Of a stretch of 64,000 bases of DNA, positions 2,604 through 4,765 are shown one piece after another. The notes beneath the pieces were generated by a model. That model saw only the letters and a program-made list of their open reading frames with translations. It was not told the DNA's origin and did no database searches. Each line of letters opens with the position of its first letter. Within the stretch, counting starts at the first letter, position 1. Origin of the DNA: Octopus sinensis (taxonomy: Eukaryota); the NCBI RefSeq assembly GCF_006345805.1, contig NC_043013.1:55676001-55740000 (forward strand). The letters are read 5' to 3'. A program made the translations under genes and the position numbers.

Positions 2604-2832
2604 TAATGTAGGATAAAATTTTTTTTGGGAAAAAATTTTATCAATGGCCAGCATATCAAAAAATAACCTTTAAAGGTTAAATTTATCAATAATTTACAAA
2701 ATAAACATAATTCACGTTTTTAATTTTCATTCCTTTCGAGAATTTATCCTTTTTTTGTGGTTTTTGAGATTTCTACTGCTCTTTCTAGCACAACGGTTTC
2801 CTATTTGGAAGCCTCTTATTGTATTTCTATAT
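2604..2832 (-). mobile_element. Penelope-like element fragment (endonuclease C-terminal relic plus 3' end)
   Basis: 2604-2700 is repeated at 3963-4060; frameshifted minus-strand reading LC..E.AVEI...[10 protein letters not shown] resembles the CxLCxxEKxxI...LNxRxE tail of PLE GIY-YIG domains. Confidence 0.6.
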
Positions 2833-2962
2833 AAATATATATGTATATATATATATATATATATATATATATATATATATACATATATATATATATATAT
2901 ATATATATATATATATATATATATATATATATATATATATATACATATATATATATACATAT
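2827..2962. repeat. (TA)n microsatellite (others at about 3438-3582, 4387-4547, 8514-8572, 37815-38050, 38788-39420, 45380-45580, 50040-50260)
   Basis: Direct reading. Confidence 0.95.
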
Positions 2963-3121
2963 AAGCAAGGAAAATCATTAAACTCAAGATACACAACAAA
3001 CTCACAATGTATCGGAGTACTTATTTTTTAATTTTTATACATATTTATTATTATTCTTTTGCAAAAAACAATGCAACTTTTTTTCCCCTTTCTCATTTTC
3101 AAAAAAACCTTTTCACCTAAC

Positions 3122-3163
3122 TATTCTTGATAAGTCAAACTATGACGAAAACCGGTTTGAATA
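3122..3163 (+). ncRNA. Minimal type-I hammerhead ribozyme motif, U3-A8 core variant
   Basis: TATTC-TTGATAA-GTC(aaactat)GAC-GAA-AACCGGTT-T-GAATA: 5-bp stem I, 3-bp stem II, palindromic stem III. Confidence 0.75.
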
Positions 3164-3294
3164 AATATATATTTATATATTTTTTCATTTTCTCATTTCA
3201 TTAAAATTTTCTTTCAATCGAGCATTCTGCATTTTTACAATTTTTCCTTGCTTATCATTTCTCCACGTGCGGTCAACACAACCCCACCATTTAT

Positions 3295-3333
3295 TGATCT
3301 GATGAACGGCAACGAGAAACTCAGAGTAACAGA
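3295..3333 (+). ncRNA. Degenerate hammerhead motif
   Basis: CTGATGA-aCG(gcaa)CGa-GAA-ACTC(a)GAGT-A; stem I is poorly paired. Confidence 0.45.
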
Positions 3334-3582
3334 TTTTGTTGAATTTTCTGTTGCTTAAAATAAAGCATATTACTCTACCACTGGTATTTGAGTACTCTTT
3401 TTTCCACCTTGTTTCACATTTATATGTTTACTCCGGTATATATATATATATACACATATATATATATATACATATATATATATATATATATATATATATA
3501 TATATACACATATATATATATATATACATATATATATATATATATATATATATATATATTCATGTATATATATATATATATA

Positions 3583-4386
3583 TTTACAAAATGAGGGCTA
3601 AAGAAAAATTCTAAAGCCAAATATTCCGAAAAAAAGACAAAAATTGTCAAAAACCATTATAATTTATGCATCTTGAAACAAACCGATAGAAATTTCTAAA
3701 AAATACGTTATTACCGTATTGGTCCCAATTTTGGGGTTAATTCATAAGAATTTTCCCTTCTTCAGTGATAAATACGTGAGATATAAGTGAAATACTTACT
3801 CATACCCATGGAAAAAGCAAGCACTAAGTCCTGAGCAGACCTAAGTACCCCAAATATATTCAAAATAGATAATCTTCGACACATCTTGAGACACGTGTGA
3901 TTCGAACTAGAAACTTTCACAGAGTGAGAGAATCCGGAAGTGAACACTATTCAATTTATAACTAATGTAGGATAAAATTTTTTCCGGAAAAAAAATTTTA
4001 TCAATGGCCAGCATATCAAAAAATACATTTAAAGGTTAAATTTATAAATAATTTACAAAATGAGGGCAGAAGAAAAATTCTAATGCCAAATACCCCGAAA
4101 AAAAAGACAAAAATTGTCAATTAACCATTACAATTTATGCGTCTCGAAACAAACCGATAGAAATTTCTAAAACATACATTATTACCGTATTGGTGCCAAT
4201 TTCGGGGTTAATTCATAAGAATTTTCCCTTCTTATGCCGTCTTTTTTTCGGCATATTTGGCATTAGAATTTTTCTTCTGCCCTCATTTTGTAAATTATTT
4301 ATAAATTTAACCTTTAAAGGTATTTTTTGATATGCTGGCCATTGATAAAAATTTTTTCCCGAAAAAAATTTTATCCTACATTAGTT
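3583..4386 (-). mobile_element. Penelope-like element with direct and inverted terminal-repeat segments
   Basis: 3583-3762 is directly repeated at about 4052-4233; 3963-4110 is inverted at 4239-4386; carries hammerhead motifs; flanked by (TA)n. Confidence 0.75.
3711..3771 (-). ncRNA. Hammerhead motif with long stem II; G12A here, second copy at 4182-4233 keeps GAAA but lacks the 5' core
   Basis: ttatca-CTGAAGA-A-GGG-aa-AATTC(ttat)GAATT-aa-CCCC-(A/G)AA-ATTGG(nn)CCAAT-A-cggtaa. Confidence 0.65.
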
Positions 4387-4547
4387 ATATATATATATAT
4401 ATATATATATATATATGTATATATATATAAATATATGTATATATATATATAAATATATGTATATATATATATAATATATATATATATATATATATATTAT
4501 ATATATATATATATATATATATGTATATATATTTATATATATATATA

Positions 4548-4765
4548 GTTAATCCAAACATGAAAACACAAAGGGAAAACACAACAACGCGAGGACGTGG
4601 AACAAGTATAGTATTATTGGACGCGCAGGAAGGAAAGGAAGATGGAGAGTTTAACGTTTCGAGCGGAGCTCTTCATCAGAAACATAGGAAAAGGAAAGAT
4701 CCAGAGAAGGGAAGATGGAGGGAAAAAAATCACCCACAGTGCACACGCGGTCACAAAGTAAAAAG
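4548..4765 (-). mobile_element. Penelope-like 3' fragment
   Basis: Carries an intact hammerhead; related to 11477-11700 (ttcctgcgcgtccaataatac vs ttcctgagcgctatactaatac); abuts (TA)n. Confidence 0.65.
4649..4683 (-). ncRNA. Minimal type-I hammerhead ribozyme motif, canonical core plus extra A
   Basis: GTTT-CTGATGA-A-GAGC(tcc)GCTC-GAA-ACGT-T-AAAC. Confidence 0.8.

What the first reader, a model, noticed from the sequence alone, without database searches (positions are those of the whole stretch)
2604..4765. Pile-up of several hammerhead-bearing Penelope-like families in (TA)n tracts
Seen: within 2.2 kb there are five hammerhead-like motifs of four dissimilar sequence types (3122+, 3295+, 3711-/4182-, 4649-), on fragments mostly bounded by (TA)n; 11477-11700 has the same context. 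Established: PLE terminal repeats encode minimal hammerheads. Inference: these PLE lineages target or generate (TA)n arrays, making ribozyme-dense islands on both strands.
Basis: partly seen in the sequence, partly recalled or inferred. Interest (0 to 1): 0.7.

Follow-up and report, generated by a model that had tools for sequence, protein, structure and literature searches.

The report
Penelope retroelement pile-up in TA microsatellite
This 2.2-kb stretch holds six broken tips of five jumping-gene families (Penelope-like retrotransposons and short protein-free relatives) that sit in TA repeats and likely landed in repeats that were already there; their hammerhead RNA motifs are real as families but mostly damaged in these copies, and the behaviour is already described.

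Summary
The island holds six insertions of five dispersed families (C twice, F, A, B, D), and 11477-11700 is a sixth family (E). A, D and E run upstream into RT + GIY-YIG frames with the Neptune/Nematis-type linker, and B into a Hydra-clade frame. C (~470-nt tandem unit) and F showed no ORF link and look like non-LTR retrozymes. All six families carry a type I hammerhead fold. In the island only 3122+ and 4649- are complete with a family-typical core. 3299+ lacks a stem I strand, 3712- has lost G12, and 4183- lacks its first core box. (TA)n follows 127 of 142 3' ends and precedes 78 of 153 5' ends (SINE-like controls 18 of 274; background 3.7%). Matching tetranucleotide arrays on both flanks (5 of 6) and array lengths favour targeting existing arrays over making them. 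(TA)n insertion by Hydra PLEs, minimal hammerheads, U3-A8 cores and two-armed inserts are published. This scan has noted similar pile-ups on other DNA of this genome. Residual interest: amplified families carry core changes predicted to weaken cleavage (A6U throughout E). Cleavage is untested.

The parts
2589..2603 (.). Left (TA)n remnant (13 nt) at the 3' end of the C fragment
2604..2702 (-). Family C 3' fragment (no hammerhead). Its 5' end abuts the short inverted arm of F with no TA between.
   Evidence: 88-93% identity to C copies
2703..2713 (-). Likely short inverted arm of F ending at F's terminal 3' site (11-12 nt, read by eye)
   Evidence: resembles the reverse complement of F's terminal sequence seen; junction printed
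2714..2830 (+). Family F main arm ending at F's internal 3' site. The family hammerhead (CUGAUGA, GUC triplet, long stem II) lies upstream in other copies and is absent here.
2828..2961 (.). (TA)n array, about 130 nt
2962..2974 (-). Likely short inverted arm of family A ending at A's internal 3' site (read by eye)
   Evidence: same sequence starts the inverted arms of other A copies
2973..3300 (+). Family A 3' end (PLE with Neptune/Nematis-type linker; RT + GIY-YIG frames upstream in long copies)
   Evidence: 93-99% identity to 39 other genomic copies; ORF in L171, L173, L178
3122..3163 (+). Complete minimal type I hammerhead of A: U3-A8 core, 5-bp stem I, palindromic stem III, U at position 17
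   Evidence: UUGAUAA core in 27 of 29 copies, U17 in 28 of 29; coordinates
3299..3436 (+). Family B 3' end (Hydra-clade PLE), joined to A's end through a shared CT
   Evidence: ORF in L174, L175
3299..3332 (+). Hammerhead of B truncated at C3 (5' strand of stem I missing)
3437..3583 (.). (TA)n array, about 145 nt
3584..4233 (-). Family C main arm, about 1.4 head-to-tail units of a ~470-nt non-coding repeat, ending at C's internal 3' site
3712..3770 (-). Full-length C hammerhead, likely inactive in this copy (G12 to A, G10.1 to A)
   Evidence: the family-typical 52-nt motif occurs exactly 69 times in the genome
4183..4232 (-). C hammerhead remnant without the CUGAAGA box (cut by the inversion junction)
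4239..4389 (+). Inverted arm of the same C insertion, ending at C's terminal 3' site
4386..4547 (.). (TA)n array, 162 nt, between tail-to-tail C and D ends
4548..4755 (-). Family D 3' end (PLE with a ~1.7-kb 3' UTR; many copies are cut at one 5' hot spot about 210 nt from the end)
4649..4683 (-). Complete minimal hammerhead of D: canonical core, 4-bp stems I and II, U at position 17
11477..11700 (+). Family E 3' end (PLE with Neptune/Nematis-type linker, related to D), TA on both sides
11567..11602 (+). Minimal hammerhead of E with the family-wide A6U core change
   Evidence: U6 in 28 of 29 top copies and in 25 of 25 ORF-linked copies with an E end

Best explanation
The island is a nest of six 5'-truncated insertions from five Penelope-type families that likely landed one after another in a pre-existing (TA)n array by endonuclease-nicked, target-primed reverse transcription. 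Shown: the families are dispersed. Each has one or two fixed 3' ends followed by (TA)n and variable 5' ends. A, B, D and E are the ends of RT + GIY-YIG elements of at least two clades, and C and F are tandem units with no ORF link found. Inferred: the GIY-YIG nuclease nicks TA-containing microsatellites; the nicked strand primes cDNA at a terminal or an internal start site on the RNA (about 45-85 nt apart); priming from the second strand gives the inverted arm; C and F borrow such an enzyme, probably a Hydra-type one. Each insertion leaves TA on one or both sides, so the site stays a target and ends accumulate on both strands. The hammerheads are passengers of the terminal repeats. The cluster is likely a by-product with no joint function.
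For: 3' TA within 30 nt: A 28 of 29, B 28 of 28, C 24 of 28, D 24 of 28, E 23 of 29; controls 33 of 274; background 4.9%. 5' TA within 20 nt: 78 of 153 copies (44 of 105 without an inverted arm) against 18 of 274 for three SINE-like families, Fisher p=5e-15; background 3.7%. In 30 D copies taken in chromosome order: 5' TA 20 of 30, 3' TA 26 of 26 with a 3' end. Of 132 copies, 6 have a TACA/TATG/TAGA array at the 3' side and 5 of these have the same unit at the 5' side; 0 of 82 copies with 3' TA have those units at the 5' side. Summed 5'+3' array length at D copies is 56 nt (n=26), close to the length-weighted genomic mean of 48 nt; the plain mean is 25 nt. Two fixed arm ends in A, B, C and F. 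ORF links. Other-family pieces lie in the flanks of 22 of 161 loci against 17 of 300 random 3-kb tiles, with 16 pieces within about 210 nt where about 2 are expected. Same behaviour reported for Hydra PLEs and cephalopod Naiads.
Against: About half of the 5' junctions have no TA (75 of 153), so the upstream target is often lost or the nick falls at the array edge; some tail extension cannot be excluded. The concordance test rests on 6 copies. Most copies were the best matches to the window's own copies, not a random draw. The empty-site search gave only two readable cases (D L022 and E L117 inside a SINE's internal microsatellite); the rest was microsatellite noise. F had TA after only 2 of 16 internal anchors, because most copies run on to a terminal site about 85 nt further. 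D's ORF link rests on 1 of 5 long copies fetched. Pfam hits for RT and GIY-YIG are below the curated cut-offs, and B's frames have none.
Confidence: 0.85

Rival explanations
1. The elements generate the (TA)n arrays: the telomerase-related RT slips on a short UAUA at its start site, or the RNA carries a (UA)n tail, so arrays are products and not targets.
For: 3' TA is nearly universal while 5' TA is found in about half of the copies; 3' arrays average 37 nt against 19 nt at the 5' side; the template past the C and F ends is TA-like; the island's arrays (123-162 nt) are among the longest (28 of 1343 sample arrays reach 100 nt).
Against: Identical non-TA units on both flanks in 5 of 6 cases; 5' TA in 44 of 105 copies without an inverted arm against a 3.7% background; summed length fits length-weighted targeting; where C continues in tandem there is no (TA)n between units.
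Confidence: 0.08
2. Passive accumulation: insertions are unbiased, and TA arrays later arise or expand at element ends, or such sites merely tolerate insertions.
For: (TA)n is very common here (about 1,000 perfect tracts of 12 nt or more per Mb), and one SINE-like control has 21 of 126 ends near TA.
Against: Young family A (93-99% identity) already has TA flush with 28 of 29 ends; controls in the same genome show 6.6% at the 5' side.
Confidence: 0.03
3. The A-B and F-C joints are chimeras made by template switching between different RNAs in one event, so the island holds fewer than six insertions.
For: No TA lies between A and B (2-nt CT overlap) or between F's inverted arm and C.
Against: A and B belong to different clades. 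None of the other 29 A or 29 B loci shows the same joint. Joins at the very edge of an array are common (9 of 26 D copies have no 5' array).
Confidence: 0.1
4. The island is a functional ribozyme cassette (for example processing a host transcript on both strands).
For: Two motifs are complete, on opposite strands.
Against: Three of five motifs are damaged; both complete ones have U17 and a minimal stem III; such motifs showed no cleavage as monomers in PMC4209133; each copy differs from its family like any other copy.
Confidence: 0.02

Closest known systems
Hydra-clade PLEs (Craig et al. 2021, PMC8557442; passages, section 11 and supplement part 2 read), incl. Hydra-1_Obim and Hydra-2_Amil
   Same: B has a C-terminal EN, DKT, an xWK motif, CxLC and CxH motifs and no CCHH, and inserts in (TA)n. 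Its hammerhead has the same stem I (CUGU/ACAG), stem III (ACUC-n-GAGU) and A17 as listed for Hydra-2_Amil.
   Different: B's hammerhead differs from the one listed for Hydra-1_Obim, so it is likely another family. The linker reads CxxX5C (second Cys absent) in the copies translated. Stem II is only 2-3 bp.
Neptune/Nematis-type EN+ PLEs (as described in PMC8557442 passages; Arkhipova 2006 not read, cited there)
   Same: A, D and E have RT followed by a Cx4CxxC-type linker and GIY-YIG (clear in A and E, partly decayed in the one D copy); A has DKG and YLDD. Minimal hammerhead near the 3' end; microsatellite bias.
   Different: No tree was built, so Neptune against Nematis is open. Long 3' UTRs (about 0.8 kb in A and E, 1.7 kb in D). 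No upstream pLTR seen in the long A copies. E has an A6U core throughout.
Minimal PLE hammerheads (Cervera and de la Pena 2014, PMC4209133; parts 1-2 of 4 read)
   Same: Short stem I, extra base after A9 in B, D and E, palindromic stem III, U3-A8 covariation (reported there for Cercyon), motifs close together on opposite strands.
   Different: A family-wide A6U core was not seen in the parts read; PMC3088659 (passages) reports A6C with low activity.
Metazoan non-LTR retrozymes (PMC7229834, passages; bioRxiv 10.64898/2026.07.22.740005, part 1 of 5)
   Same: C and F are AT-rich, non-coding, head-to-tail units with one type I hammerhead per unit.
   Different: C's unit (~470 nt) is slightly above the 150-450 bp range given. 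Arrays are short and often two-armed, in (TA)n. Circular RNA and cleavage are untested.
Poseidon PAc of Anolis (Frangieh et al. 2024, PMC11167929; parts 1-2 of 4 read)
   Same: Two fixed RT start sites give the 'tail'; both target strands are cut and extended; AT-rich target.
   Different: Other clade; PAc cuts at ATT, not a microsatellite, and starts without homology, whereas several ends here have 2-5 nt of TA-like overlap.

Membership tests
EN+ Penelope-like elements (A, B, D, E) | RT followed by a C-terminal GIY-YIG endonuclease upstream of the terminal repeat | tested here: met
   A: L171, L173, L178; B: L175; E: 25 of 30 EN loci have the E end downstream; D: L386, thumb and EN only. Pfam RVT_1 and GIY-YIG hit only below cut-off.
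EN+ Penelope-like elements (A, B, D, E) | Fixed 3' end, 5' truncation, inverted arms and tail | tested here: met
   inverted arms in A 12 of 24 and B 16 of 27, none in D (0 of 28) or E (0 of 28)
EN+ Penelope-like elements (A, B, D, E) | Direct pLTR-ORF-pLTR arrangement | tested here: inconclusive
   No upstream copy of the 3' end in the long A and B loci examined; these may be 5'-truncated
Hydra clade (B) | DKT, RWK, no CCHH, CxxC and CxH in the EN, CxCX5C linker | tested here: met
   DKT, IWK, CRLC and CRH present; linker lacks its second Cys in L174 and L175
Hydra clade (B) | Placement in the Hydra clade of an RT tree | not tested
   No reference sequences aligned; homologues at 37-50% identity are mostly unnamed
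Neptune clade (A, D, E) | CX2-5CxxC linker and CCHH motif | tested here: met
   Clear in A and E, partly decayed in the one D copy; the linker is shared with Nematis
Neptune clade (A, D, E) | RT phylogeny separating Neptune from Nematis | not tested
   no tree built
Non-LTR retrozymes (C, F) | Non-coding head-to-tail unit with one type I hammerhead | tested here: met
   C: junction in 9 of 29 top loci, period 467-471; F: period 433 in L166; no ORF link in 59 C and 19 F loci
Non-LTR retrozymes (C, F) | Self-cleavage and circular RNA | not testable with these tools
   Only contigs were available; they cannot show ends or circles
Type I hammerhead ribozyme | Core CUGANGA/GAAA (or U3-A8) with stems I-III | tested here: met
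   Met for families A, C, D, F and B (weak stem II); in the window only 3122+ and 4649-. D and E differ by a compensatory pair in stem I.
Type I hammerhead ribozyme | Invariant A6 (family E) | tested here: not met
   U6 in 28 of 29 and 25 of 25 copies
Type I hammerhead ribozyme | Self-cleavage | not testable with these tools
   needs an in vitro assay

The most novel reading that the evidence does not exclude
Several independently amplified PLE lineages of this genome keep the hammerhead fold while fixing core changes predicted to cripple cleavage (A6U throughout family E, U4C in 13 of 29 D and at least 10 of 27 B copies, U17 in A and most D). The motif would then be kept as an RNA fold for the RT-EN protein, or as a protein-rescued ribozyme, rather than as a free self-cutter. 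TA arrays would act as self-renewing landing pads shared by Neptune-type, Hydra and retrozyme families.
Probability: 0.3. Interest if true: 0.55.

Novelty: new member of a known kind. Interest (0 to 1): 0.25.

Why it matters
As found, it adds families to known PLE clades and gives a quantitative case that they target existing TA-containing microsatellites, including TACA, TATG and TAGA arrays. This had been listed as an insertion preference; in the texts read it was not tested against controls. If the novel case holds, these natural core variants in high-copy families would make the open question of what PLE hammerheads are for directly testable.

Tried and rejected
Rfam: no hammerhead model matched; the hits were microsatellite-driven miRNA models below gathering score. 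The idea that D is a fixed-length SINE was held after and dropped when longer copies and an ORF link appeared. D as a tandem retrozyme was rejected: only 13 exact head-to-tail joints with variable spacers, against 1,293 exact matches to its 5' motif. The de novo repeat clustering fragmented families and served only to pick three controls. The first boundary census ate into TA arrays and was replaced, which left out the window's own six loci and three near-duplicate loci. The empty-site search was mostly noise. Expression: no RNA holder listed; contigs of four runs cover the C unit but cannot show ends or circles. PDB search of A's RT gave nothing significant. Unconstrained MFE folding does not return the hammerhead fold for most motifs. 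No PLE ORF piece was found in the window. Literature searches: 'hammerhead + A6U + catalytic core' 0 papers; 'Penelope-like + AT microsatellites + insertion' 0; some searches gave the papers cited. Supplements of PMC4209133 and of the bioRxiv preprint were not seen and may list A6U or cephalopod families.

Full report
Scope. I read the region, searched the own genome G000 (2.72 Gb) with each fragment, fetched long copies and a systematic 1-Mb sample of 100 tiles, and analysed them by script. Genome searches return only the 40 best candidates, so those sets lean towards copies like the window's. The label 'octopus-like' comes from recall and from earlier scan notes, not from a call of mine.

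What is there. The island breaks into six insertions separated by TA arrays of 13, 130, about 145 and 162 nt: a C fragment (2604-2702, -), F (2703-2830), A (2962-3300), B (3299-3436), a two-armed C insertion (3584-4233 -, 4239-4389 +) and D (4548-4755, -). The fragment at 11477-11700 is family E, about 75% like D around the hammerhead. Each is a dispersed repeat, with 358 to 2,646 first-look candidates, which are lower bounds. The 1-Mb sample held 19 D/E, 5 B and 1 C piece and no A or F.

The hammerheads. A: UAUUC/GAAUA stem I, core UUGAUAA (U3-A8) in 27 of 29 copies, U17 in 28 of 29. B: CUGAUGA in 15 of 27, C4 in at least 10, A17 in 27 of 27; the window copy starts at C3 and lacks a stem I strand. 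C: CUGAAGA core, GGGG/CCCC stem II with an extension, 5-bp stem III, A17 (23 of 29 copies matched the pattern); the first window copy has lost G12 and the second has no first box. D: canonical in the window, U17 in 18 of 28. E: U at position 6 in 28 of 29. F has a canonical core with a GUC triplet upstream of the piece present. A strict descriptor gives 19 hits per Mb against 0-2 in shuffles; 10 of 19 have (TA)5 within 260 nt downstream, 3 upstream, background 16%. So the motifs are real at family level, but only two of the five in the island are complete with a family-typical core.

Link to PLE ORFs. A's long copies carry RT (DKG, YLDD) and a Cx4CxxC linker plus GIY-YIG; Pfam hits are weak (E 6e-4 and 4e-4, below cut-off). 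B's long copy L175 has DKT, IWK, YRDD, CRLC and CRH and no CCHH, which fits the Hydra clade as defined in PMC8557442 section 11. Its hammerhead shares stems I and III with the Hydra-2_Amil entry in that paper's supplement. E's endonuclease found 15,493 candidates, and 25 of 30 loci have the E end downstream, all with U6. D seemed a fixed-length unit, but a minority of copies extend upstream; in L386 a 1.7-kb stretch shared with three other copies joins it to a thumb and GIY-YIG frame (1 of 5 fetched). C gave no protein hit in 59 loci and forms head-to-tail units of 467-471 nt. F forms a 433-nt repeat in L166, and its only EN hit is a neighbour across a TA array.

Target or generate. TA lies within 30 nt of 127 of 142 3' ends of A-E, against 33 of 274 for three SINE-like families and 4.9% background. 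It lies within 20 nt of 78 of 153 5' ends of A-F (44 of 105 without an inverted arm), against 18 of 274 and 3.7% (the window's six own loci and three duplicates left out, as were copies running off the locus). A position-ordered D set agrees: 20 of 30 and 26 of 26. A templated tail would always be TA. Yet 5 of the 6 copies with a TACA, TATG or TAGA array at the 3' side have the same unit at the 5' side, and none of 82 copies with 3' TA has such a unit there. The two flanks of D copies sum to 56 nt on average, near the length-weighted mean of genomic arrays (48 nt; plain mean 25). Against this, half of the 5' ends lack TA, 3' arrays are longer than 5' ones, the concordance set is small, and only two empty-site paralogues were readable.

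Mechanism. A, B, C and F each end at one of two fixed sites about 45-85 nt apart, and inverted arms are common in these four and absent in D and E. This matches the PLE tail and inverted arrangement (PMC8557442, Fig. 2 legend) and the two RT start sites and two-strand cleavage shown in vitro for PAc (PMC11167929). I infer nicking of TA-containing arrays, priming at either start site, second-strand priming for the inverted arm, and 5' joining with frequent loss of upstream target. The flanks remain targets, so different families stack. Other-family pieces occur at 22 of 161 loci against 17 of 300 random tiles, mostly within about 210 nt (16 pieces, about 2 expected). Six in 2.2 kb is likely the tail of that distribution; the site and the families were selected after the fact. 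The A-B and F-C joints have no TA and could be template switches, but edge joins are common.

Known and new. (TA)n insertion is published for almost all Hydra families, including one from an octopus, and for cephalopod Naiads, and is hypothesised for Neptune. Minimal hammerheads, U3-A8 and weak cleavage are in PMC4209133; tandem non-coding units in PMC7229834. Earlier notes of this scan describe similar pile-ups elsewhere in this genome; they are unchecked and were used as leads only. Not found in my searches: a family-wide A6U core (PMC3088659 passages report A6C with low activity). With U4C in 13 of 29 D copies and U17 in A and D, and the report that PAc inserts in vitro without hammerhead cleavage, this suggests relaxed or altered ribozyme function. 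That is untested.

Verdict. A real feature of a known kind: new family members, targeting favoured over generation, no sign of a joint function. Interest 0.25.

Noticed in passing
Family D, window 4755-4760 and loci L324-L353: Most D copies stop at one 5' hot spot about 210 nt from the end of an element with a 1.7-kb 3' UTR; 1,293 exact matches to the motif there, 16 of 30 preceded by CATT. It could be a microhomology join to TA/TACA, an RT stop, or a separate short transcript.
   Followed up: partly
L171, L172, L177 (long loci): Further nested PLEs beside the copies sought: Hydra-type EN frames, several Neptune-type EN pieces, and a nearly full Hydra frame with an A-like end upstream of it.
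   Followed up: no
1-Mb sample, L181-L280: Many other hammerhead-type motifs (for example in L205 and L263, L224, L267, L255 and L258, L223, L276), five of them with U3-A8 cores; 15 of 100 tiles hold a PLE ORF piece.
   Followed up: no
L057, L058, L169: A and F ends followed by (CT)n instead of (TA)n; most A ends carry a CT dinucleotide before the array.
   Followed up: no
L022, L117: D and E copies inserted in the internal microsatellites of an abundant SINE-like repeat.
   Followed up: partly
L051, L070, L100, L112, L168 (3' flanks): Another recurrent element starts right after the TA array at PLE ends; it was not identified.
   Followed up: no
window 11849-11986 and 13392-13507: Inverted-repeat hairpins picked up as sub-threshold miRNA models; a 48-nt tandem repeat lies at 13423-13551.
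   Followed up: no
L066:1500-1985: The C unit is covered by contigs from runs labelled as four organisms, with TA loose ends at the internal 3' site in two of the four runs.
   Followed up: partly
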